Below the pieces are notes generated by a model that saw only the letters and a list, made by a program, of their open reading frames with translations, had not been told where the DNA came from and ran no database searches. Below are positions 1-8,347 of a stretch of DNA of 64,000 nucleotides, one piece after another. The translations under genes were made by a program, and so were the position numbers. Position 1 is the stretch's first letter. Every line of letters begins with the position of its first letter. The stretch lies in the IMG/VR virus record IMGVR_UViG_3300037130_000236. One strand, written 5' to 3'. The DNA is from a virus.

Positions 1-445
1 TATCGACCCACACATGATCCTCTGTCGCTCCCCGCGGTTCTACGGCGATGAAGTGGTCTGGCGTGATACTGGTGCAGGTCACTCGATGTCCGTCCCAGAT
101 GAACTGGCGGCCGACAAACATACGCTCACCCTCGAGGATGAAGGGCTTCCGACCGGCCCATTCTTCGTATGCCTGGCAGGCGGAGATGTTGCGAACGTCC
201 ACCGCGGCGCTGTAAAACCGCTCGTGTTCACAGCCAAACCAATAACCGCCCCGAAAGTCGTCCATGAGTTTCTTGAAGTCGCACTTCATAAATCTCATAC
301 CGCTGGTGATCGCAAGCACGACTGCCGAGTGCATGGAATGGTTTAGGCGTTGCCACGCATGTCCGGGTGTGGCCTCCTGATTCCTGTTCCAAACGTGCTT
401 GCACAGCACGTAAGCAGGGCTCTTGTATTTGGTGGGACGAAGCAT
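1..445 (-). CDS. Hypothetical protein, runs off the left edge
   Basis: Manual translation MLRPTKYKSPAYVLCKHVW... open to position 1; AAGGAG RBS before ATG at 445; absent from ORF track. Confidence 0.6.
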   Translation of the reverse strand, partial: MLRPTKYKSPAYVLCKHVWNRNQEATPGHAWQRLNHSMHSAVVLAITSGMRFMKCDFKKLMDDFRGGYWFGCEHERFYSAAVDVRNISACQAYEEWAGRKPFILEGERMFVGRQFIWDGHRVTCTSITPDHFIAVEPRGATEDHVWVD

Positions 446-519
446 GGGTCTCCTTGTCTGGCTACAACCAGATTGAACTGTGAGCTTGCAAATTGGGATA
501 AGGGAAACTGCTTAGGTCT

Positions 520-662
520 TGGGGGAGATGGCAGGATTTGAACCTGCAATTCCCGGGTCAGCTGCATTGCCCCGCAGCGTTACCGCTCTCGGTCACCATG
601 CGTGACCCAGGAAACCGGCGCAAGACCGGCGGGCTATCCGATACCACTGCCAATCATCTCCC
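520..662 (-). tRNA. tRNA-like RNA (143 nt) with 66-nt branched variable arm; identity unclear
   Basis: GGGAGATG/CATCTCCC acceptor (G-1:C73-type) + CCA; T arm GCAGG-TTCAAAT-CCTGC; anticodon-like arm GCCGG-TCTTGCG-CCGGT; insert closed by TTCCTGGGTCA/TGACCCGGGAA. Confidence 0.7.
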
Positions 663-666
663 ACAT

Positions 667-1011
667 CTATTCTGGCAGCTCTTGATCGATCAGCTCTGCC
701 AGCTCGATGTTCCGGGCGCTCGCCGCGCGCAGAAATGCTTTCGATGCGTCTTCCATCTCTAATGCGGCATCGTATTCCGCATCGCCAGAGTCGCCTTCCT
801 TGGCCACATCGAACCTCTTGATGGCCTTGATCAGGCTTTTCGCTTCGTCTAGCATGGAGGCTTCCTCATCATCTGAAGGGTGTGGCGGAACAAATACATG
901 GCCACAGTTTTGGCACGCTTGGCCGGCCACGGCCTCAAGAGGGATTTCCAGTCCACAGTCTGGGCAAACACCATCTTGATAACTGCGAATGATCGAAATG
1001 CTTTCCGACAT
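667..1011 (-). CDS. Zn-ribbon hypothetical protein
   Basis: CPDC...CQNC pairs; GGAG RBS before MSESIS (start trimmed from track ORF). Confidence 0.6.
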   Translation of the reverse strand: MSESISIIRSYQDGVCPDCGLEIPLEAVAGQACQNCGHVFVPPHPSDDEEASMLDEAKSLIKAIKRFDVAKEGDSGDAEYDAALEMEDASKAFLRAASARNIELAELIDQELPE

Positions 1012-1019
1012 ATGTGCTC

Positions 1020-1661
1020 CTACTGGGGATCCCAGCCGATCTGTTCGATCACATCGGTATCGTGATGCTCGTAACCGCGAAGCTCTGCCTGGCCGACCGT
1101 CACCGGGTCTTGTATGCCCATCGTGATTCGTTGGCACAGCCTGTGGGTCAAGACGATTCCGACAGCCACGCTCAGATTGAAGCAGTGGTAGGCCGGGATC
1201 TTGATGAACCGATGGCAGAGCGCGCGGTAGACCTGTGGAATGGAACCATCCTCGGGTCCGAAGAGGTAAACTCCCCGGTCGGGATGGATGAAGTCGTTCA
1301 GTGGTTCTGCGTTCTCTACGACCTCGATCGCCACCGGTGTAATCCCCGGTTCGAACAGGTCGAGAGGCTTATCGCTGGTGCCCCATTGAACATCGGCATA
1401 CCCGCGCATGCGTTCTTCCCGCGGCAGCCTGTCATAGTCATGGGGATTGACCCGCTTTCCTGTCCACAGCAGATTGTCGATTCCCGTGCAGGAACAGGTG
1501 CGCAGGACACCACCAACATTGCGGACGTATTTCGGGTTCACCAGAACGACGCCGCTGCCTTGCAGCGGCAGCCGGGCGCCGTGCTGTAGGCAACGCCTGA
1601 GTACCTTCTTGCTTTCAAACAGACATCCGCATTTCTCAGCTCTCAGTGCGTCAGTTGCCAT
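1020..1661 (-). CDS. SpoU/TrmH-family SPOUT RNA 2'-O-methyltransferase
   Basis: Motifs NVGGVLRT, YLFGPEDGSIP, IKIPAYHCFNLSVAVGIVL match the SPOUT knot pattern. Confidence 0.88.
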   Translation of the reverse strand: MATDALRAEKCGCLFESKKVLRRCLQHGARLPLQGSGVVLVNPKYVRNVGGVLRTCSCTGIDNLLWTGKRVNPHDYDRLPREERMRGYADVQWGTSDKPLDLFEPGITPVAIEVVENAEPLNDFIHPDRGVYLFGPEDGSIPQVYRALCHRFIKIPAYHCFNLSVAVGIVLTHRLCQRITMGIQDPVTVGQAELRGYEHHDTDVIEQIGWDPQ

Positions 1662-1667
1662 GATTCC

Positions 1668-2108
1668 TCAGTATTGTGCGAGTGTGATTGCCGTGACATT
1701 GAACCGGCGTTTGGCCTTGTCGTAGATGTCGTCCAGATCGAGATCGATGCGTTCGCCGGCGCTGTTGAAGGCCGTTGCATGCCCGTTGATGTAGCGCAGC
1801 TTTTCACTGCCTATTTGCTCAAAGACAACGATCTGATCGTCCTGAATCAGTTCTGCCAGCTCGGCTACAAGATCGACTTCATCATTGTCCTCGTCTGCAC
1901 CGAAATCGACCGTCGGCCAACCGCCGCTGTCGTTGACAGCGTCATCCGGCGCAACTCCAAACAGCTTTCTGGGATCTTTGCCGTCGGCCGGTTTCTCTTC
2001 CATTTCTTCCCAAACCTCCAGGCCGCGCTTGGCTGCCCACGCGCGGAAAGCAGCCTCATCCTTTACCGCAAAGTAGTTGCTGCGTGCACTGCCGTACCAG
2101 TTTGCCAT
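1668..2108 (-). CDS. Hypothetical acidic protein
   Basis: 146 aa ORF with GGAG RBS, in tandem with neighbours. Confidence 0.75.
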   Translation of the reverse strand: MANWYGSARSNYFAVKDEAAFRAWAAKRGLEVWEEMEEKPADGKDPRKLFGVAPDDAVNDSGGWPTVDFGADEDNDEVDLVAELAELIQDDQIVVFEQIGSEKLRYINGHATAFNSAGERIDLDLDDIYDKAKRRFNVTAITLAQY

Positions 2109-2182
2109 GTGGTTCTCTCCTAGTCGCGGTACCGTTTCATCCGGTCCACCACTTGTTCGCGCGTTTCACCTTGCGGCTGTAT

Positions 2183-2686
2183 TCACGCCGCAGTTTGTTC
2201 CAGCGCCACCACTCCAGAAATGCCTTGATCATTGCGCTCCCAACTCTTGTTCGCCATCAGGTCAAGCCAGTACATCCGCTCGGCCATCAGAATCCGGCCC
2301 AGCCAGTTCGTGCCTTGGCCATTGCAGACACCGTAGAAATAGTCATGCCAGGTGTTGCCCTCAACAAGATCGTGAGGGAAGGTATTCACCAGCTGAATGC
2401 GAATGTCCTTGTTCTGGGCGAACTTGGCATGAACCACCTCGGACATGACGATCAGACTGATCTCTTTCCAGTCCGGCCGCGTGAGATGCTTCAGCTCCTT
2501 CGAAAGCTTCTTGGCGCCTTTGCCATCCGTGCTCTCGTACTTGAGCCTGTATTCCTCGTCCCGCGGCAACAATTTGGCTGCCTGATACGCACTCTCGCTG
2601 TTTTGGTACAGGTGGCCGCTATGCCAGAGCGGCGCCTCATGGAAGTTCGACAACCAACGATATTCGCCCATGAATGAATCGATCAT
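2183..2686 (-). CDS. NADAR (YbiA-like) family protein
   Basis: WLSNF, SESAYQAAK, M..VVHAKFAQN, LVEGNTWHDYFYG, NWLGRILM motifs; start trimmed to MIDSF. Confidence 0.9.
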   Translation of the reverse strand: MIDSFMGEYRWLSNFHEAPLWHSGHLYQNSESAYQAAKLLPRDEEYRLKYESTDGKGAKKLSKELKHLTRPDWKEISLIVMSEVVHAKFAQNKDIRIQLVNTFPHDLVEGNTWHDYFYGVCNGQGTNWLGRILMAERMYWLDLMANKSWERNDQGISGVVALEQTAA

Positions 2687-2814
2687 CTTCAACCTTTCCG
2701 TCCCTGTGTCCCGATAGGAGCATCGCCAAACGTTCCCGTCAGAAACACAGGGCACGGGCGGTGAGACCGGATCGTTGGCGCGACCGGTACGCAGTCTCTT
2801 TCCGCAGCTTGAGG

Positions 2815-3057
2815 CTACCGAGGTTTAACCTCAGTGCCCGTCCAAACGTGTGTTGCGGGTTCGGGCTTCATGGTCTTGGGTAGCTGCCGGCCTTCCCAGT
2901 GAACTTCGCTGGGCTCAAAGGTTCGGCTGTATTCACACGCTGTTTCCGCGTCCTCGTCACCTTCGAGGGCTTTCTTGAAAGCCTCTTCGATGGTCTCGGC
3001 TTCCACTTCCTTGGTGGCCCAGTGAAGCTCGGGTACTTCGATCTCAAACCTTGCCAT
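2815..3057 (-). CDS. Hypothetical protein
   Basis: 80 aa ORF with GGAG RBS. Confidence 0.65.
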   Translation of the reverse strand: MARFEIEVPELHWATKEVEAETIEEAFKKALEGDEDAETACEYSRTFEPSEVHWEGRQLPKTMKPEPATHVWTGTEVKPR

Positions 3058-3177
3058 CGGTTCCTCCGTTGCAGGGTACTTCGTAGGCTTCGTGAAGGTC
3101 GTCGGCCATCATCAGGAAGCGGCGCGCGCCTTCGCGCAAGCAGGCTTCATCCAACAGGATGGGATACCAAAGTCATT

Positions 3178-3510
3178 TCACTTCACTCGCACCATCGTCG
3201 TTGTAGCGAGGGTGTCGTAGACGGTGTCCAGCATCTGTTTGGCTAAGGCTCGTCCATCCGGATCGGCCATCAGAGCCACAAACTCCGGACTCTCGTTCCA
3301 CAGGCTGAAGACCAGCGCTTTGAGGCCGGCGATGTCGCCACGGTCAATGAACTCCGAGCACCGCTCGCAGGCAGCCCAGACACGCGTGTAGTTGTGAGCG
3401 GGGCCGACTTCCGGCCCGGACTCCACAAACATGCGAACCAAGATGTCTTGGCCCGCGTCATAATGTCGTGTGGCTAAGCGCTGACTGCAGAAATCACAAT
3501 TGTCTGGCAT
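3178..3510 (-). CDS. Hypothetical protein with two CxxC pairs
   Basis: CDFC, CERC; AAGGAG RBS. Confidence 0.7.
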   Translation of the reverse strand: MPDNCDFCSQRLATRHYDAGQDILVRMFVESGPEVGPAHNYTRVWAACERCSEFIDRGDIAGLKALVFSLWNESPEFVALMADPDGRALAKQMLDTVYDTLATTTMVRVK

Positions 3511-3525
3511 CGTGCTCCTTCAAAT

Positions 3526-3615
3526 TGGCAGGGGCGACAGGATTTGAACCTGCAGTGAACTTGCGTTCCGTGGCTTTGGAGACCACTGTGCCGAACCGGA
3601 TTGCACATCACCCCT
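3526..3615 (-). tRNA. tRNA-Trp(CCA) with 16-nt long variable arm
   Basis: AGGGGTG/CGCCCCT + G73 + CCA; D stem GTGC/GCAC; anticodon arm GTGGT-CTCCAAA-GCCAC; variable hairpin GAAC-GCAA-GTTC; T arm GCAGG-TTCAAAT-CCTGT. Confidence 0.9.
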
Positions 3616-3964
3616 GTGCTGTCCACTCGTTGAGACACTGACGGCAGTTGTATTGTGCCGCGGTCTCGGTGGTCCGCATATCATTCTTGGTTGTCCGAAT
3701 GGTTATCTCGACTGAATCTACATTCCAGCTGAGGCATTTCGGACACTCCACATGTGTTGGTAACGGTCGAAGCATCGAGCCGCCAGGAAACTCCTTGCGC
3801 GCCTCGATCTCTTCAACCACACTCTTGACTTCTGCTTCGGTGAAGGGACGCCCCTTCACCCGAGCGGCCAGAACATCGTTCACTTTGAGCCAGAACGGGG
3901 CATCCCATCGTCCGTGGGAACTGAAGCTCACCCAGCTCATGGGAATCTCGCCTATTTGTGACAT
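3608..3964 (-). CDS. Hypothetical Zn-ribbon protein; stop codon overlaps tRNA-Trp 5' end
   Basis: CPKC...CRQC; TGA at 3608-3610 lies inside the tRNA's first 8 nt. Confidence 0.65.
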   Translation of the reverse strand: MSQIGEIPMSWVSFSSHGRWDAPFWLKVNDVLAARVKGRPFTEAEVKSVVEEIEARKEFPGGSMLRPLPTHVECPKCLSWNVDSVEITIRTTKNDMRTTETAAQYNCRQCLNEWTAQG

Positions 3965-4965
3965 TTGGCCTTCGTGTCCTTGGTCAGCTTCTTGAAGTTG
4001 TAGACCCAGATCTTCGACTCAACGGCATTCGGCGGCAGTGGGAAAGTGATCCCGGCCTTAGCCTCGACGTTGGTCAGCATCGTGTGGACACTCTCCAGGT
4101 CGTTGCCCAGATCGCCGGCCTGAGGAAACAGGAAGGCGACGTACTGGCCCGTCACGATATCGACCACGATCTTGTAGAAACCCGTGGGCACATCCACTTG
4201 GTCGGTGCCGATCTTCTTGTCCGTGGCCACGTCATAGACTGGCCCGGCATAGATCAGATAGGTATGACCGCTCTCGTAGGCGCCGGCGCGAACCGCCGTC
4301 TCGAGCAGCTTCCACAACCCTCGGTTCAAACCCGGGCGCTGAGGCGTCATATTGGAGAGCATGAAGCTCTCCCGTTCCACATCCGGATCCCAGCGCATGT
4401 CGCCGTCCGGAGCAATGTGGCCCATATCGAATCCGCTGCCCACATAGTCAGCCGGCTTGGCGCGACCGCCCTCCGGAAGGGTATCGTCGGCAGCAAAGGC
4501 ATTGCTGCGCACTTCGCAGCCAACCGCATGTTCAGGCGTCAGGGTGTAAGACACCCACTCCGGAAGCTTGGCCACCTCATCGCTGTATACCAGATAGGCT
4601 CGCCGGCAAATGTAGGCGTGCGTACTGTCAGCCGTGAGCAATTCTCCCCTGATGGTCAGAGGTGTCCCATAGGGAACGAACTGATGACAGGAGCTGAGGG
4701 GCTGTTCTGGAGGAGCTGAGTAGACAGTGGGTGCCAAGATCAGGGCGACCATGGCAACGGCCACAGCAAAGCCAAGTCCGCGGCAGAGTCTCTTGACTTG
4801 GCTGAGGGCACATGGAAAAGCCTTCTCATGTCCACACTCAATGCACCGCAGCTTGGTGCGCTCGGGGGTAACGGGCTTCATGATGCCGCCACACACCCAT
4901 GGGGTTGGGATAAACCCGAAGATCTTCACACGACAATCGCAAACGAATGCGCTTCCAAGTTGCAT
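3952..4965 (-). CDS. DNA/RNA non-specific endonuclease (EndoG/NucA-like) with Cys-rich N-terminus and TM/signal segment
   Basis: PEWVSY, R..F..D, DMGH (DRGH-like), SFMLSNMTPQ...LNRGLW, IYAGPVY, VPTGFYKIV. Confidence 0.9.
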   Translation of the reverse strand: MQLGSAFVCDCRVKIFGFIPTPWVCGGIMKPVTPERTKLRCIECGHEKAFPCALSQVKRLCRGLGFAVAVAMVALILAPTVYSAPPEQPLSSCHQFVPYGTPLTIRGELLTADSTHAYICRRAYLVYSDEVAKLPEWVSYTLTPEHAVGCEVRSNAFAADDTLPEGGRAKPADYVGSGFDMGHIAPDGDMRWDPDVERESFMLSNMTPQRPGLNRGLWKLLETAVRAGAYESGHTYLIYAGPVYDVATDKKIGTDQVDVPTGFYKIVVDIVTGQYVAFLFPQAGDLGNDLESVHTMLTNVEAKAGITFPLPPNAVESKIWVYNFKKLTKDTKAKCHK

Positions 4966-4990
4966 TTGGCACTCACTTTCTGGTTCAAAT

Positions 4991-5031
4991 CTCCCGCCGG
5001 GAAAGGGTTCACCGGGCTAACCCGGCGGGAG
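4991..5031. other. GC-rich hairpin upstream of nuclease gene
   Basis: CTCCCGCCGGG ... CCCGGCGGGAG 11-bp inverted repeat; no clear U-tract. Confidence 0.4.
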
Positions 5032-5066
5032 GGGTGGCGTTGTCCTTGATCTTGGACGACCTGAGC

Positions 5067-5414
5067 TTACGCACCAGGACGGGATTCACAACCCGTATTC
5101 ACGCCCGCTTGTGGCTCCGGCTGCACCGGAACAAATTTGCTTCCCGACTCTCTCATCGCCGCGAGAATACGAGCAGCCCGTTCTGTATCAAAGCTCTCGG
5201 GACGGCCGTCGTAGCAGCCTGGAATTCTCCCCGTGCTTGCCCGATAGCAACGGCTTCTGATCTCGTCGGCCAATTTACGATCCGCTTCAGTCGGCGTCAC
5301 ATCGCATTTGAGACAGCGGTCGTTGACAATCTGATTGCAGCCGCAGCGATCGCAGAACGCATACCCATCAGCTCGATAGTTGATACCGTTCTTTAACGCA
5401 TACTCGTCCTGCAT
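5067..5414 (-). CDS. Hypothetical Cys-rich protein
   Basis: CDRCGC...CLKC; GGAG RBS before MQDEY (start trimmed out of the tRNA-like gene). Confidence 0.6.
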   Translation of the reverse strand: MQDEYALKNGINYRADGYAFCDRCGCNQIVNDRCLKCDVTPTEADRKLADEIRSRCYRASTGRIPGCYDGRPESFDTERAARILAAMRESGSKFVPVQPEPQAGVNTGCESRPGA

Positions 5415-5428
5415 TGTTTCTCCATTCA

Positions 5429-5559
5429 TGGTGGGGCAAGGAGGACTTGAACCTCCATGCAACGCCGGTCATGCAGCCCGGCTGCGCCTATCCTGCAGGG
5501 TTGAGCACTGTTGCGCCGGATTATCGGTCCGGTGTGTCTACCAGTTTCACCATCGCCCC
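5429..5559 (-). tRNA. tRNA-like RNA (131 nt), GAT anticodon, Leu-like D arm, 59-nt branched variable arm
   Basis: GGGGCGA/TTGCCCC + A73 + CCA; D arm GTG-AAACTGGTAGA-CAC; CCGGA-CCGATAA-TCCGG; insert closed by GCAAC/GTTGC; T arm GGAGG-TTCAAGT-CCTCC. Confidence 0.75.
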
Positions 5560-5564
5560 ATTTG

Positions 5565-6000
5565 AGGAGCCGAGCCCAGAAGGCTTATTAGGCCAGCCCG
5601 GGCCCGGCTCCGAAGGTTCCGAAATTGGGTCACCTATCAAACCATCAGAGGGTTACACTGCGTTCGCCACCCACAATCGCCAGAATGCTGTGATTCACCG
5701 ATTAGCTCCATGCGCGCTATGAATTGACAGCTCACTTCCTGGGCCGTCCGAAGGCTTACCAGAGCGCGTACCACGGCTGGTTGGGGCATTCTCCCACCTC
5801 TGCTTCGTTGGTTCCGAAGAACCGATCTCGTGCCAGGGGACGGATTTGTCACCGTCATCTCTCCGGCGGATTAACGCGTCTCCGCAGGCCGCTCTACTTC
5901 TTGAGCTACTCCCGACTCAATACTTCAACCGGTGTGCTGTTACGCTAAAGAGTCCATGTCTCGCCTTACCAGGCCAGCCGCAGTTTGCGTAGCAAGAAAC
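5565..6000 (-). ncRNA. Candidate large structured ncRNA directly upstream of the tRNA-like gene
   Basis: No convincing ORF; 12-bp stem 5566-5577/5600-5611; GGTTC-TTCG-GAACC hairpin 5810-5823; further CCTTCGG loops; embedded D-arm-like TAGCTCAAGAAGTAGAGC. Confidence 0.5.
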
Positions 6001-6003
6001 GTG

Positions 6004-6138
6004 TCAACTGCGACCCGCGTGCCAATAGCGTTTGGCGTGAATGCAGCAATTCCCGGCGAGCAGCCGGCCTGCTTCATCTCTGCACCCCGAACTGCCACGC
6101 ATACCATTCCGATACGTCTCCGGCAGTCCCCGTGTCAC
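6004..6138 (-). CDS. Small hypothetical protein (44 aa)
   Basis: AAGGAG RBS + GTG; MTRGLPETYRNG...HAGRS; below track length cutoff. Confidence 0.4.
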   Translation of the reverse strand: MTRGLPETYRNGMRGSSGCRDEAGRLLAGNCCIHAKRYWHAGRS

Positions 6139-6194
6139 GACTCACTCCTTGGAGGATGGCTGCTATCAAGCCAACCTTCCGGTTGAAGAACTTG

Positions 6195-6425
6195 TTAGGC
6201 CGCGGCGGTCAGCGTGACCGAACTGATGGGGGTCGGCGCCGAAGCGGCGGGCTTGGCTGCCTTGGTTGCCTTGGCGGGCTTCGCAGCGGTCGCCGGCGCG
6301 TTGGCGGCGATCTTCTGGCTGGCGATCGCGGTAAAGAAGTTCAGCGCGGTCTGGGTTTGCTCGACGGTTGCGGTTGCAATGTATTCCACCAGGTACTGCT
6401 CAAAGCTCTTGGCTTTCTTTGCCAT
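6195..6425 (-). CDS. Small protein with Ala/Lys/Pro-rich (histone H1-like) tail
   Basis: MAKKAK... AAKPAKATKAAKPAA; GAGGA RBS. Confidence 0.65.
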   Translation of the reverse strand: MAKKAKSFEQYLVEYIATATVEQTQTALNFFTAIASQKIAANAPATAAKPAKATKAAKPAASAPTPISSVTLTAAA

Positions 6426-6429
6426 TCGA

Positions 6430-6760
6430 ATTCCTCTTTCGGTTGGGTTAATGATTGAGCCACACAGGACTGTTGTTCCTGTCTCTTTCACCGTGTTCAG
6501 GATCGAGACTGACGGGATCCATCCTGTGTGGTCCAGTCATGAGCGTTTTGTTCCGCCGGACTCGCTCCCACCGGTCTTAATGCCCGATCCGAGTGCTAGG
6601 TGAAGCCGTACAGCATGGCTTCACTGGCACTGCGTCGTAGGCATCTTTTGGGGCATCACGGTTGAACTCGTGACATCCTCCACCACCTGATGTGTTTCAT
6701 GGCATCAGGACCACTCCTTGGTTTTACTGGCCAAGAACAGGTCGCACCATCAGGGAAAAC
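6430..6760 (-). ncRNA. Candidate structured leader RNA
   Basis: Hairpins CCTGATG/CATCAGG, TCACG/CGTGA, GTGAAGCC/GGCTTCAC, CCACACAGGA/TCCTGTGTGG. Confidence 0.35.
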
Positions 6761-6762
6761 CC

Positions 6763-7023
6763 TTATGGCGTTTGATCTGCCGTCAGTTTGACAAGATCAG
6801 TTGAACTACCAAAGCTTCCATCGGCGTTTCCTTGCCTGAATCGACGCACAGCAGATTGGCCAATTACACGCAGAAGGTTTGCTGATATCCGCAACTCCAG
6901 GATTTCTCCTTGGAGCCTGCGGATTTCGGTTCCTAATCGTGTCATCATCTGTTCGTGACAATCTGCGCAAACAGCCCGTCGCATTCGTCTCGACGAGCAC
7001 TTTTGACATACGCACATGTTCAT
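6763..7023 (-). CDS. Hypothetical protein, N-terminal Cys cluster plus coiled coil
   Basis: MNMCVCQKC...CADC; start trimmed. Confidence 0.5.
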   Translation of the reverse strand: MNMCVCQKCSSRRMRRAVCADCHEQMMTRLGTEIRRLQGEILELRISANLLRVIGQSAVRRFRQGNADGSFGSSTDLVKLTADQTP

Positions 7024-7415
7024 TGCCCTTGAATTGCGTTTTCCTGTTTTGGACAGCTGGATGACCGGGATTGGTCCCGGCGAGCGAAGGTTCGGAACAT
7101 GGTCCCCGACCAATTCGCCGCCGCGGAAAGTAAAGACGGGCGCACACCTGATCAGGCATGGCGGAGAGCCATCTCACGCGACACTTGTCTGGAAGTATGC
7201 TGCGCCGAATGGAGGCTTTGCCTCTGCCGGTCGGATAGACGCGGCAGCAAGGCGAAACCAATCTGGAAGACGGAGGGGAGTTGAGGAAGGGGTACCTGAT
7301 AAATAGCGTTGAAATGGGGCAAATAATGGCATTCTAAGGTCGGTAGAGGCCCAGCCGGGCACGCTGCGGGTTCTGAATATTGAACATGCTTTTTGTAGCT
7401 TCTAATAAGTGCCGA

Positions 7416-7766
7416 CTAAGCCGCCTTGTCCAGGTGCCTGACGAGCATCCGCTCCACCGACGCCACAGACTGATAGCCCGTGACCGTCTCGGCACGGCTG
7501 CCGCTCTTGAACAGGATCAGGGTAGGAATACCCCTGACACCATAAGCAATGGTCTGGCCCTGTTCTGCATCCACGTCGTACTCGACAACCTTTAGGTTGG
7601 AGTGCTTTTCGGCAACGGTGTCAACTACAGCTTTCAGTTGCTTGCAAGGACCGCACCAGGCGGCGGCGAAGAACACCAGAACCGCACCTGGGTAGTTGGT
7701 TACGTCGGCGCACCAGTCCTTGTCCGACGTCGGCATAATCTTCGTGAGCGAAGTCTTCACTGACAT
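7416..7766 (-). CDS. trxA: Thioredoxin
   Basis: VLVFFAAAWCGPCK, YDVD, YGVRGIPTLILFK; AGGAG RBS before MSVKTS. Confidence 0.92.
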   Translation of the reverse strand: MSVKTSLTKIMPTSDKDWCADVTNYPGAVLVFFAAAWCGPCKQLKAVVDTVAEKHSNLKVVEYDVDAEQGQTIAYGVRGIPTLILFKSGSRAETVTGYQSVASVERMLVRHLDKAA

Positions 7767-7921
7767 TGCGTTTCTCCTGACTATGAGTTCAGAACAGTTC
7801 ACCCGGTCCTGCGCACTGCAGTCCTTGCTCCTGCCTTTCTCAAGGAGGATCTCGCGCGGATGGCGTGGGCCTTGCCGGCCAATAGGCCGAATCTGTCTAT
7901 AGGGTGAAACACCTAGCCGTT

Positions 7922-8347
7922 TCAGTCTTCGGCAGGATGAGCGACTTGGTTGCCGTCTTCTCCCACTGACTGCTGGGCGTCTTCGTCCTCGTCCTCGCCG
8001 TCTTCCGGCTCTCTGCCGGCGCCGGGGTCCATGTTGAAGTCACACGGCCGGCACTCGTGGCCAGTTAGTGCCTGGAAGCTCTCCTGGATGTTGTCCATGG
8101 TTGCGGCCAGGTTCTTTCCGTCGAGGTCGCTGATTCCCTGTTGGGTCAGCAGGCAGTCGTTGTAGACCGTTTCCATCGTGGTGAGCGCGTTGTCGACCAG
8201 TTTCAACTCAGGAACTGCTGCGAACAACGCCTCAGCCATGGAAGAACAGTCGGCGTGCATAAAGGATCCGATGAACTGCAGGATCTTCTCAGCCAGCTTG
8301 TCGGAAACGACAACCGGCTCCGGTGGGACGATTTCAAACATAGACAT
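7922..8347 (-). CDS. Hypothetical acidic protein
   Basis: 141 aa with D/E-rich C-terminus. Confidence 0.7.
   Translation of the reverse strand: MSMFEIVPPEPVVVSDKLAEKILQFIGSFMHADCSSMAEALFAAVPELKLVDNALTTMETVYNDCLLTQQGISDLDGKNLAATMDNIQESFQALTGHECRPCDFNMDPGAGREPEDGEDEDEDAQQSVGEDGNQVAHPAED

What the first reader, a model, noticed from the sequence alone, without database searches (positions are those of the whole stretch)
520..662. His-type acceptor tRNA-like RNA with a 66-nt multi-hairpin variable arm
Seen: 8-bp GGGAGATG/CATCTCCC acceptor followed by CCA (G-1:C73, the tRNA-His identity element), but the loop is TCTTGCG (TTG by position, C33, C37), not GTG. The insert at 548-613 is closed by an 11-bp stem and contains AGCG-GTAA-CGCT and GCTGC/GCAGC hairpins, with an alternative GGTCAC/GTGACC pairing. 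Inference: mismatch between acceptor identity and anticodon plus a switch-like insert suggests a non-decoding role or an intron at a non-canonical site.
Basis: partly seen in the sequence, partly recalled or inferred. Interest (0 to 1): 0.78.

Follow-up and report, generated by a model that had tools for sequence, protein, structure and literature searches.

The report
Phage tRNA look-alike with giant arm
A large phage of soil Acidobacteria carries a real, conserved 143-base RNA gene shaped like a transfer RNA, with a histidine-type end and a 63-base extra arm; its anticodon-like loop varies in length, so it probably does not read codons, and what it does is unknown.

Summary
On the minus strand, window 662..520 encodes a cloverleaf with an 8-bp acceptor (G-1:C73) followed by CCA, a D arm, an anticodon-like hairpin, a canonical T arm and a 63-nt arm at the variable-arm site. 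ARAGORN and Rfam tRNA miss it. With the arm removed, ARAGORN calls tRNA-Gln(UUG).

I collected 15 distinct copies from related phage, prophage and metagenome contigs. They fall into two types. Acceptor, T arm and stems are almost invariant: 5 of 63 columns vary, against 24 of 62 third-codon positions in the adjacent ORF. The inner arm is replaced between types (36 of 42 columns vary) yet keeps its length and rod shape. The anticodon-like loop is 7 (or 5) nt in type A and 8 (or 6) nt in type B.

Some close relatives lack the element. Among 151 Acidobacteriaceae genomes only one prophage has it.

Best reading (about 0.45): a non-decoding tRNA mimic, excised by RNase P and probably chargeable by HisRS, with the arm as a type-specific handle. 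Rivals are a decaying tRNA, an RNA-processing signal, or an odd decoder. An intron and a Ro60 partnership are not supported.

This scan has noted giant-armed phage tRNA look-alikes on other DNA. I found no published description.

The parts
520..662 (-). Whole tRNA-like RNA gene, 143 nt including the encoded CCA
   Evidence: Sequence. Own covariance model R1 scores it 167.9 bits. 15 distinct homologous copies. RNAalifold consensus is a cloverleaf plus a long arm.
655..662 (-). 5' acceptor strand GGGAGAUG; base 662 is G-1
   Evidence: Invariant in 15/15 copies, and all 8 pairs are kept. ARAGORN starts the arm-deleted tRNA at 661, i.e. G+1.
523..530 (-). 3' acceptor strand CAUCUCCC; base 523 is C73, paired with G-1
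   Evidence: Invariant in 15/15 copies. It directly abuts the T stem.
520..522 (-). Encoded CCA end
   Evidence: Sequence. The Trp and Ile-like genes of the cluster also encode N73-CCA. Two copies (L037, L123) have one C fewer in the C run.
631..652 (-). D arm: 4-bp stem (3 bp in the window copy, U.C at 652:631) and a 14-nt loop ending in the invariant GGAUA
   Evidence: The 5' part of the loop differs by type (4 fixed differences). The window copy alone has U at 652 and A at 648.
614..630 (-). Anticodon-like hairpin; loop 625-619 (UCUUGCG) or 624-620 (CUUGC)
   Evidence: Stem invariant or wobble-compatible. U38.G44 becomes C-G and one G is inserted in type B. The Rfam tRNA-Sec model aligns it as a 6-bp stem with a short loop.
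550..613 (-). Giant extra arm at the variable-arm position (about 63 nt, rod-like hairpin; base stem 613-603 with 560-550; apical hairpin 587-576)
   Evidence: MFE -34.6 kcal/mol, z -4.6. Base stem has UA->CG and GC->AU double changes between types. 36 of 42 inner columns vary, but length (62-64 nt) and topology are kept.
531..547 (-). T arm GCAGG-UUCAAAU-CCUGC
   Evidence: Canonical T loop. Invariant except G53A in one copy, L028. Its first 16 nt are identical to the T arm of the neighbouring tRNA-Trp.
445..519 (-). Context: conserved intergenic region between the element and the next ORF (start codon at 445)
   Evidence: 70/72 identical between the window and G001. It is also present directly after the upstream ORF in relatives that lack the element. 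No sigma-70-like promoter or terminator was found in 300-1300 on this strand.
5432..5559 (-). Context: sibling giant-arm tRNA (Rfam tRNA 47.4 bits) with a 57-nt arm and loop CCGAUAA (GAU, C33)
   Evidence: In the type-B prophage the loop is CCACGAA (ACG) with a compensatory D-stem change, and the arm is conserved.
3526..3615 (-). Context: tRNA-Trp(CCA) with a 12-13-nt extra arm and A8
   Evidence: ARAGORN, Rfam 41.7 bits, sequence.

Best explanation
This is a functional, phage-encoded tRNA mimic and not a decoding tRNA.

Shown: it lies inside a co-oriented run of small phage genes, with no promoter or terminator of its own found. Its acceptor stem (G-1:C73), encoded CCA, T arm, D stem and the GG of the D loop are kept under purifying selection.

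Inferred from established tRNA biology: it is transcribed as part of a polycistronic RNA and cut out by host RNase P and 3' trimming. It should fold into the tRNA L-shape and present a histidine-type acceptor end, which bacterial HisRS recognises mainly through G-1:C73. It is therefore probably aminoacylated with His, or at least bound by HisRS and other enzymes that bind the tRNA end.

Its anticodon-like loop is not a conserved 7-nt loop, so it is unlikely to pair with codons on the ribosome.

The roughly 63-nt rod-like arm projects from the core. It exists in two sequence-unrelated but isomorphic versions that travel with type-specific D-loop and loop sequences. I read it as a handle or ruler for a partner that differs between phage types.

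Most likely use (inference only): a decoy or adaptor in the conflict over tRNAs between phage and host. It might soak up or divert a tRNA-binding host factor, such as a tRNA-targeting defence nuclease or HisRS. This fits the neighbouring translation-support genes: tRNAs, a two-piece tmRNA, a SpoU-type methylase and a weak PTH2 match.
For: Architecture
- The cloverleaf plus arm is predicted independently for type A and type B and for all 15 copies together, with 42 pairs, 7 of them showing double changes.
- With the arm deleted, ARAGORN calls a tRNA.
- The best Rfam model is tRNA-Sec, at 27.5 bits, through the 8-bp acceptor, 6-bp stem and long arm.

Selection
- Variable columns over 17 linked copies: core 5/63, against 24/62 third-codon positions of the adjacent ORF (P = 4e-5).
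- Acceptor plus T arm: 2/33 (P = 6e-4).
- The window and G001 are 40/40 identical in acceptor, T arm and CCA, while the neighbouring ORF is 90.5% identical.

Not a decoder
- The loop is UCUUGCG in type A and CCUUGGCG in type B. The 38:44 change from U.G to C-G extends the stem and leaves 5- and 6-nt loops.
- Position 37 would be a pyrimidine and position 33 a C in the 7-nt reading.
- The related phage record G002 already carries a canonical tRNA-Gln(UUG).

Arm as a constrained but exchangeable module
- Inner arm: 36/42 columns vary (P = 2e-6 against third positions).
- Both versions are 62-64 nt and fold to the same rod topology.
- The base stem keeps pairing through UA->CG and GC->AU changes.

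His-type end
- Host tRNA-His in G001 has G-1:C73 and an encoded CCA.
- Acidobacterial irregular G-1 tRNAs with a non-His anticodon were charged by E. coli HisRS in vitro but did not insert His in vivo (Mukai et al. 2017, PMC5389517).

Context
- The window is from a large phage or prophage: terminase, ligase and exonuclease PHROGs. SpoU, NADAR and a nuclease lie next door, and a permuted tmRNA lies about 2 kb downstream in relatives.
Against: - No expression, processing or charging data exist.
- The element is dispensable. Relatives whose flanking ORF is 82% identical lack it precisely.
- It was found in one phage lineage only. Among 151 Acidobacteriaceae genomes only the G001 prophage has it. 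Among 185,579 species genomes, the pattern scan found only that genome.
- 5 of the 15 distinct copies carry a change that weakens a helix or the 3' end: window U.C in the D stem, L028 G53A, L037 and L123 one C fewer, and L121 three arm mismatches.
- Within type A the inner arm varies at about the synonymous rate, 13/42 against 12/63. Constraint on it is therefore weak.
- No candidate partner was identified. There is no TROVE/Ro60, RtcB, HisRS or CCA-adding enzyme in the two related phage records.
- The arm shows no extended complementarity to phage sequence.
- The decoy function itself rests on analogy only.
Confidence: 0.45

Rival explanations
1. Decaying tRNA gene. A former phage tRNA, possibly Pro(UGG)- or Gln(UUG)-like, acquired a hairpin insertion at the variable loop and small deletions in the anticodon loop. 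It is now a non-functional relic on its way to being lost.
For: - Presence/absence polymorphism among close relatives.
- Loops that look like CUUGGGC minus one or two bases. The best outside hits of the covariance model are host tRNA-Pro(UGG), whose loop is CUUGGGC.
- Scattered disruptive changes in 5 of 15 copies.
- The inner arm evolves at about the synonymous rate within type A.
- G002 carries another degenerate tRNA-like stretch (L026:16714-16783, 25.8 bits).
Against: - The core is five times less variable than linked third-codon positions (5/63 against 24/62, P = 4e-5).
- All 8 acceptor pairs, G-1:C73 and the GG of the D loop are invariant in 15 copies spanning two types. The encoded CCA is kept in 13 of them.
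- Two unrelated arms keep the same length and topology, with compensatory changes in the base stem. Neutral decay would not produce that.
Confidence: 0.2
2. RNA-processing (punctuation) element. The tRNA shape serves only to recruit RNase P and 3' tRNA nucleases, so that the polycistronic phage transcript is cut between the upstream small ORF and the downstream gene. This would set mRNA ends and stability. The excised RNA itself would have no job.
For: - The element sits 4 nt after a stop codon and 75 nt before the next start codon, in a co-oriented gene run with no promoter or terminator found on this strand.
- Conservation is strongest in the acceptor and T arm, which are the parts RNase P reads.
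- The downstream intergenic region is itself highly conserved.
Against: - It does not explain G-1:C73-CCA, an intact anticodon-like hairpin, or a 63-nt arm kept in length and shape through sequence replacement.
- Relatives manage the same gene junction without it.
Confidence: 0.15
3. Unusual but working decoder. It would be a His-charged (or Gln-charged) tRNA that reads CAA/CAG through UUG in type A. With the 8-nt loop of type B it would read a quadruplet or shift the frame. The effect would be deliberate recoding or mistranslation during infection.
For: - With the arm removed, ARAGORN accepts a 7-nt loop with UUG for the type A copies.
- The sibling giant-arm tRNA differs between types in exactly the three anticodon positions, GAU against ACG, with flanks kept. 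This suggests that triplets matter in this family.
- Class II tRNAs show that long arms are compatible with the ribosome (established knowledge).
Against: - In the 7-nt reading it has C33 and a pyrimidine at 37.
- The 38:44 covariation closes the loop to 5 or 6 nt.
- Loop length is not conserved between types.
- G002 has a normal tRNA-Gln(UUG).
- G-1 irregular tRNAs charged by HisRS were not used in translation in E. coli (PMC5389517).
- A rod of roughly 28 bp is far beyond any arm known to function on the ribosome (my knowledge).
Confidence: 0.1
4. Intron-containing or partner-bound known class. Either the arm is an intron that is spliced out, or the RNA is a YrlA-type Y RNA that works with a Ro60 (TROVE) protein.
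For: Non-canonical intron positions exist in archaeal tRNAs (my knowledge). Earlier notes of this scan tie some giant-armed phage tRNA look-alikes to Ro60-like genes (unchecked here).
Against: - The arm has no bulge-helix-bulge; its base is a continuous helix.
- The host is bacterial.
- No RtcB and no TROVE were found in G002 or G203.
- No Rfam YrlA or ribozyme hit at E <= 10 over the element.
- In YrlA the long stem is formed by the RNA's ends, whereas here the ends form a tRNA acceptor with CCA.
Confidence: 0.05

Closest known systems
Irregular G-1 tRNAs and allo-tRNAs of Acidobacteria and their phages (Mukai et al. 2017, NAR, PMC5389517)
   Same: Same host phylum. tRNA-shaped genes with non-standard cloverleaves and long extra arms. 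Their G-1 species carry a non-His anticodon, were charged by E. coli HisRS in vitro, and were not used for translation. The authors propose non-translational or conflict-related roles.
   Different: Allo-tRNAs are defined by 8/4 or 9/3 acceptor/T branches and a long D stem with a tetraloop. Here the T stem has 5 bp and the D arm is 4 bp with a 14-nt loop. Their arms are of class II size, not about 63 nt. The published ones sit in tRNA polycistrons or next to toxin-antitoxin genes, not inside a phage operon of ORFs.
Bacterial tRNA-His
   Same: G-1:C73 extra pair followed by an encoded CCA, as in the host's own tRNA-His. Canonical T loop and the GG of the D loop.
   Different: No GUG anticodon. 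A different acceptor sequence from host tRNA-His. A 14-nt D loop, a 63-nt extra arm, and a non-canonical loop length.
Class II tRNAs and tRNA-Sec (Rfam RF00005, RF01852)
   Same: An extra helix at the variable-arm position. If G-1:C73 is counted, a 13-bp acceptor/T branch like bacterial tRNA-Sec. tRNA-Sec is the best-scoring Rfam model (27.5 bits).
   Different: The score is below both gathering thresholds. The arm is about three times longer than known arms. There is no UCA anticodon, no G73 and no 6-bp D stem.
Stable tRNA-like RNAs in the phage T4 tRNA cluster (species 1 and 2 RNAs, rnaC and rnaD; from my own knowledge, not checked here)
   Same: RNAs of about 120-140 nt encoded among phage tRNA genes, processed like tRNAs, with no decoding function assigned.
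   Different: No sequence or structural comparison was made here. A different host and phage lineage.
Giant-armed phage tRNA look-alikes noted earlier by this scan (e1-3451191, e1-2167918 and others; AI notes)
   Same: tRNA-shaped phage genes with 68-86-nt structured arms at the variable-arm position and anticodon loops unsuited to decoding, often with a mutated position 33.
   Different: Those have Lys-, Asp- or Tyr-type bodies in phages of other phyla. There is no sequence relation to this element. This one has a His-type acceptor and a loop of variable length.

Membership tests
Canonical tRNA (Rfam RF00005 / ARAGORN) | Scores at or above the family threshold (29 bits) or is called by ARAGORN | tested here: not met
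   No RF00005 hit over 520-662 even at E <= 10. ARAGORN finds nothing there. The G002 copy gets only a 49-nt local hit of 19.3 bits.
Canonical tRNA (Rfam RF00005 / ARAGORN) | Acceptor stem, D stem, T arm with a UUCRANY-type loop, GG in the D loop | tested here: met
   All are paired and conserved in 15 copies. ARAGORN calls a tRNA once the arm is deleted.
Canonical tRNA (Rfam RF00005 / ARAGORN) | 7-nt anticodon loop with U33 and a purine at 37, conserved in length | tested here: not met
   The type A loop is UCUUGCG (C33, C37) or 5 nt. The type B loop is 8 or 6 nt.
tRNA-His | G-1 paired with C73, then CCA | tested here: met
   Base 662 (G) pairs with base 523 (C); CCA is at 522-520. G-1:C73 is invariant in 15 copies. 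The host tRNA-His has the same arrangement.
tRNA-His | GUG anticodon | tested here: not met
   The loop holds UUG or UGG-like letters and no GUG.
tRNA-His | Aminoacylation by HisRS | not testable with these tools
   Needs an in vitro charging assay. The precedent for G-1 irregular tRNAs is in PMC5389517.
tRNA-Sec (Rfam RF01852) | Score at or above 47 bits, UCA anticodon, G73, 6-bp D stem | tested here: not met
   27.5 bits on the L039 copy. The loop is CUUGC, the discriminator is C, and the D stem has 4 bp.
allo-tRNA (Mukai 2017) | 12-bp acceptor/T branch split 8/4 or 9/3 | tested here: not met
   The T stem has 5 bp (GCAGG/CCUGC) after an 8-bp acceptor, giving 8/5, or 7/5 plus G-1.
allo-tRNA (Mukai 2017) | Long variable arm with a Ser-type discriminator (G73/U73) | tested here: not met
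   The arm is present but is about 63 nt, and the discriminator is C.
YrlA-type Y RNA with Ro60/Rsr | A TROVE (Ro60) gene in the same element, and an Rfam YrlA match | tested here: not met
   No PF05731 match in G002 or G203. No YrlA hit at E <= 10. A very distant Ro60-like protein would be missed.
Intron-containing tRNA (archaeal type) | Bulge-helix-bulge at the exon-intron borders, with a splicing endonuclease and ligase | tested here: not met
   The arm base is a continuous 10-12-bp helix. No RtcB in related phage records. The host is bacterial.
tmRNA | tRNA-Ala-like acceptor (G3.U70) with a tag reading frame | tested here: not met
   ARAGORN and Rfam place the phage's permuted tmRNA elsewhere, about 2 kb downstream in relatives. 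This element has G3-C70 and no tag.

The most novel reading that the evidence does not exclude
The element and its giant-armed sibling at 5432-5559 would belong to an undescribed class of 'armed' tRNA mimics. These would be phage RNAs that keep a chargeable tRNA end, here of histidine type. They would use an exchangeable rod-like arm of about 60 nt as a docking handle for a phage- or host-specific partner. The function would be to neutralise tRNA-targeting immunity or to redirect an aminoacyl-tRNA synthetase. The two arm types would be alleles shaped by an arms race.
Probability: 0.15. Interest if true: 0.8.

Novelty: new variant of a known kind. Interest (0 to 1): 0.55.

Why it matters
Phage tRNAs are now seen as weapons against tRNA-cleaving defence systems, but the known examples are ordinary decoders with small loop changes. 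This RNA keeps the tRNA end under purifying selection, has given up a standard anticodon loop, and carries an arm three times longer than any known tRNA arm.

If it is a mimic, it would show that phages also deploy tRNA mimics and not only spare tRNAs. It would also offer a tractable test case with two natural arm alleles, a His-type end that is easy to assay, and natural deletion variants.

Standard tRNA finders miss such genes, so phage tRNA inventories may be incomplete. If it proves to be a decaying gene, it still records how phage tRNA genes pick up insertions and erode.

Tried and rejected
- Public phage genomes: blastn of window 1-8000 against 50,697 phage records found nothing.
- Wider homologues: a BLAST of the element over 201 Acidobacteriaceae genomes gave only G001 plus short chance hits. 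The loose pattern scan of 185,579 species genomes gave 73 hits. Only G001 is real; the rest are adjacent or intron-containing ordinary tRNAs. IMG/VR holds only two related records.
- Antisense idea: the arm and the D/anticodon-like region have no match or complement longer than 12 nt in the window or related loci, which is chance level. The 5-nt complementarity between loop CUUGC and GCAAG in the downstream intergenic region does not covary in type B (my reading).
- Acceptor mimicry of host tRNA-His or tRNA-Gln: the acceptor sequences differ and only the G-1:C73-CCA arrangement is shared. A degenerate pattern search for the host tRNA-His anticodon arm was useless.
- Attachment-site remnant: rejected. 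The element lies in the middle of phage contigs of 124 and 178 kb, between conserved phage genes.
- Partner hunting: Pfam, PHROGs, NCBIfam and ESM Atlas gave no function for the flanking small proteins. The SpoU methylase could not be assigned to TrmH, TrmJ or TrmL.
- Ribozyme: only a sub-threshold Twister-P5 hit elsewhere in the cluster (5840-5898, 19.9 bits, E = 1), and nothing over the element.

Full report
WHAT IS THERE

The feature is a gene on the minus strand, read from window 662 down to 520. Its parts, in order:
- GGGAGAUG (662-655), then AU.
- A D arm: a 4-bp stem in all other copies. The window copy has U at 652, giving U.C. The loop has 14 nt and ends in GGAUA (652-631).
- An anticodon-like hairpin (630-614).
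- A 63-64-nt arm (613-550).
- UU, then a canonical T arm GCAGG-UUCAAAU-CCUGC (547-531).
- CAUCUCCC (530-523) and CCA (522-520).

The 3' acceptor strand abuts the 5-bp T stem. The helix is therefore 7 bp plus a G-1:C73 pair, the tRNA-His arrangement. Formally it can also be read as an 8/5 branch like bacterial tRNA-Sec.

ARAGORN and the Rfam tRNA model both miss it, even at E <= 10. When the arm is deleted or replaced by a normal-sized variable region, ARAGORN calls tRNA-Gln(UUG) starting at G+1 for the type A copies, 4 of 7 at default settings and all 7 with relaxed ones. It calls an undetermined tRNA for the G001 copy. The best Rfam model is tRNA-Sec at 27.5 bits, below its 47-bit threshold. 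It aligns an 8-bp acceptor, a 6-bp anticodon-type stem and a long arm.

A strict scan of both strands of the 64-kb window required a T arm plus a perfect 7-bp acceptor 45-230 nt upstream. It returned three hits only: this element, tRNA-Trp (3615-3530) and an Ile-like tRNA (5559-5433). All three are on the minus strand and each is followed by N73-CCA.

WHERE IT LIVES

The window is part of a large phage or prophage.
- PHROG matches to terminase, DNA ligase and exonucleases.
- Next to the element, a SpoU-family methylase, a NADAR protein and a non-specific endonuclease.
- The closest records are two IMG/VR proviruses of 124 kb (G002) and 178 kb (G203), and a prophage in an Acidobacteriaceae MAG (G001, CAWENG010000004.1).
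- In these relatives a circularly permuted tmRNA lies about 2 kb downstream. G002 also has a canonical tRNA-Gln(UUG) and tRNA-Leu(GAG).

The element starts 4 nt after the stop codon of a small ORF and ends 75 nt before the next start codon. No sigma-70-like promoter or terminator was found on its strand nearby. Co-transcription followed by excision through tRNA processing is the natural inference.

COMPARATIVE EVIDENCE

I gathered 15 distinct copies in three steps: homologues of the upstream protein, their contigs, and one pattern scan of the JGI metagenomes. The copies are and alignment A5. They form two types.
- Type A has 10 sequences, including the window. The loop reads UCUUGCG.
- Type B has 5 sequences, including the G001 prophage. 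The loop reads CCUUGGCG, the 5' part of the D loop differs, and the inner arm is unalignable.

RNAalifold was run separately on each type and on all 15 together. Each time it predicted the same architecture: 8-bp acceptor, D stem, 6-bp hairpin, long rod-like arm and T arm. There are 42 pairs, 7 with double compensatory changes. These include UA->CG and GC->AU in the base of the arm.

Conservation is strongly uneven. Over 17 linked copies:
- The core (acceptor, D stem, hairpin, T arm, CCA) varies in 5 of 63 columns.
- Third codon positions of the adjacent ORF vary in 24 of 62 (P = 4e-5).
- The inner arm varies in 36 of 42 columns (P = 2e-6 in the other direction).

Within type A the inner arm varies at about the synonymous rate, 13/42 against 12/63. 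Between types it is essentially replaced: 23/42 fixed differences against 12/63. Even so, the two arms are 62-64 nt long and fold into the same unbranched rod with an apical 4-bp hairpin at the same place. The core is thus under purifying selection. The arm behaves as an exchangeable module whose length and shape matter more than its sequence.

THE ANTICODON-LIKE LOOP

The change U->C at position 38, opposite G44, turns U.G into C-G in type B. This supports a sixth stem pair and leaves loops of 5 nt (CUUGC) and 6 nt (CUUGGC). In the other register the loops are 7 and 8 nt. Either way, the loop length is not conserved and the loop is not canonical.

The covariance model's best outside hits in 151 Acidobacteriaceae genomes are ordinary tRNA-Pro(UGG) genes (43 bits), whose loop is CUUGGGC. 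Descent from a Pro-like arm by loss of one or two G is possible. The acceptor shows no such relation.

Host tRNA-His has G-1:C73 and an encoded CCA, but a different stem sequence.

DISTRIBUTION

The element is lineage-restricted and dispensable.
- The full-length element (150.7 bits) occurs only in G001 among the 151 family genomes searched with the model. Two of those genomes, G004 and G027, are unpublished. No claim here rests on them individually.
- It occurs only in G001 among 201 genomes searched by BLAST.
- It is the only true hit in the scan of one genome per species.
- Four contigs of a related phage (flanking ORF 82% identical) lack it cleanly. The ORF's stop is followed at once by the conserved intergenic sequence that follows the element elsewhere.

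INTERPRETATION

- The intron idea fails. There is no bulge-helix-bulge, the host is bacterial, no RtcB was found, and the loop stays non-canonical after arm removal.
- A Ro60/Y-RNA relationship was suggested by earlier notes of this scan on other phages. It finds no TROVE gene here.
- A remnant of an integration site is excluded by the element's position in the middle of phage contigs.

Four readings remain.
1. I favour a non-decoding tRNA mimic (0.45). Selection acts on exactly the parts read by RNase P, HisRS, EF-Tu and other proteins that bind the tRNA end and elbow. The part needed for decoding is not kept. The arm looks like a type-specific handle.
2. The closest published precedent is in the same phylum. 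Mukai et al. 2017 (PMC5389517) describe irregular acidobacterial tRNAs, among them G-1 species with a non-His anticodon. E. coli HisRS charged these efficiently in vitro, yet they did not insert His in vivo.
3. A decoy role against tRNA-targeting defence fits the current view of phage tRNAs (PMC10264068, PMC11555353, PMC13056530). Here it remains inference.
4. The main rivals are a decaying tRNA gene (0.20), a pure RNase P punctuation signal (0.15) and an odd decoder (0.10).

The relic reading is the one to take most seriously. The element is sometimes absent, 5 of 15 copies carry a weakening change, and its loop looks eroded. Against it stand the fivefold deficit of variation in the core and the isomorphic replacement of the arm.

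NOVELTY

I found no description of a tRNA-shaped gene with an arm of about 60 nt in the papers searched. That library lacks most subscription journals. Rfam has no family for it. This scan has noted analogous giant-armed phage tRNA look-alikes on other DNA. Those notes are unchecked by me and show no sequence relation to this element.

I class it as a new variant of a known kind (irregular or tRNA-like RNAs of phages). Interest is moderate to high, tempered by the narrow distribution and the lack of expression data.

Noticed in passing
window 5432-5559 (-); L027:16942-17069 (-): The sibling giant-arm tRNA (57-nt arm, Rfam tRNA 47.4 bits) has loop CCGAUAA (GAU, with C33). In the type-B prophage the loop is CCACGAA (ACG). 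Exactly the three anticodon positions differ, the arm is conserved, and the D stem shows a compensatory U-A to C-G change.
   Followed up: partly
window 3526-3615 (-): tRNA-Trp(CCA) with a 12-13-nt extra arm (class II-like) and A8. Its T arm shares 16 nt with the His-type element. It is identical in all type-A relatives and absent from the corresponding place in type-B loci.
   Followed up: partly
L026:10774-11226; L039:8086-8354; L027:9290-9667 (about 2 kb beyond the window's start): A circularly permuted (two-piece) tmRNA gene inside the phage (Rfam tmRNA_permuted, 70-73 bits). ARAGORN predicts a 30-residue tag ending in ...GVLAAV.
   Followed up: no
L164 = G001:C5:707700-712200: A dense array of 25 tRNA genes in 4.5 kb in the host MAG. 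Two Ser tRNAs score best with the tRNA-Sec model and may be allo-tRNA-like. L164:2040-2230 is a 191-nt tRNA-like RNA missed by ARAGORN and Rfam. It has an 8-bp acceptor followed directly by CCA and an insert of about 100 nt where the anticodon arm should be (MFE z = -6.4).
   Followed up: partly
L026:16714-16783 (G002:68713-68782): A degenerate tRNA-like stretch (Rfam tRNA 25.8 bits, below threshold) whose fold is no better than shuffles. It may be a tRNA pseudogene in the same phage.
   Followed up: partly
window 2183-2755 (-) and 3608-3964 (-): The NADAR protein and a 118-aa protein are only 66-69% and 58-65% identical between type-A and type-B phages. Their neighbours are mostly 88-99% identical. 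Their divergence tracks the arm type, which may simply reflect mosaic recombination.
   Followed up: no
window 667-1011 (-): In type-A phages the small ORF upstream of the element is fused in frame to an N-terminal zinc-ribbon-like part, giving 114 aa. Type-B phages and the element-free relatives have only the 62-66-aa C-terminal part.
   Followed up: partly
window 445-519 (-): The intergenic region downstream of the element is 97% conserved between types. It is also present in relatives that lack the element. It contains a small hairpin (UCUGG...CCAGA) just before the ribosome-binding site of the next gene.
   Followed up: no
window 5840-5898 (-): A sub-threshold Twister-P5 ribozyme hit (19.9 bits, E = 1) inside a 430-nt ORF-poor stretch upstream of the Ile-like tRNA. 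Another reader flagged that stretch as a candidate structured RNA.
   Followed up: no
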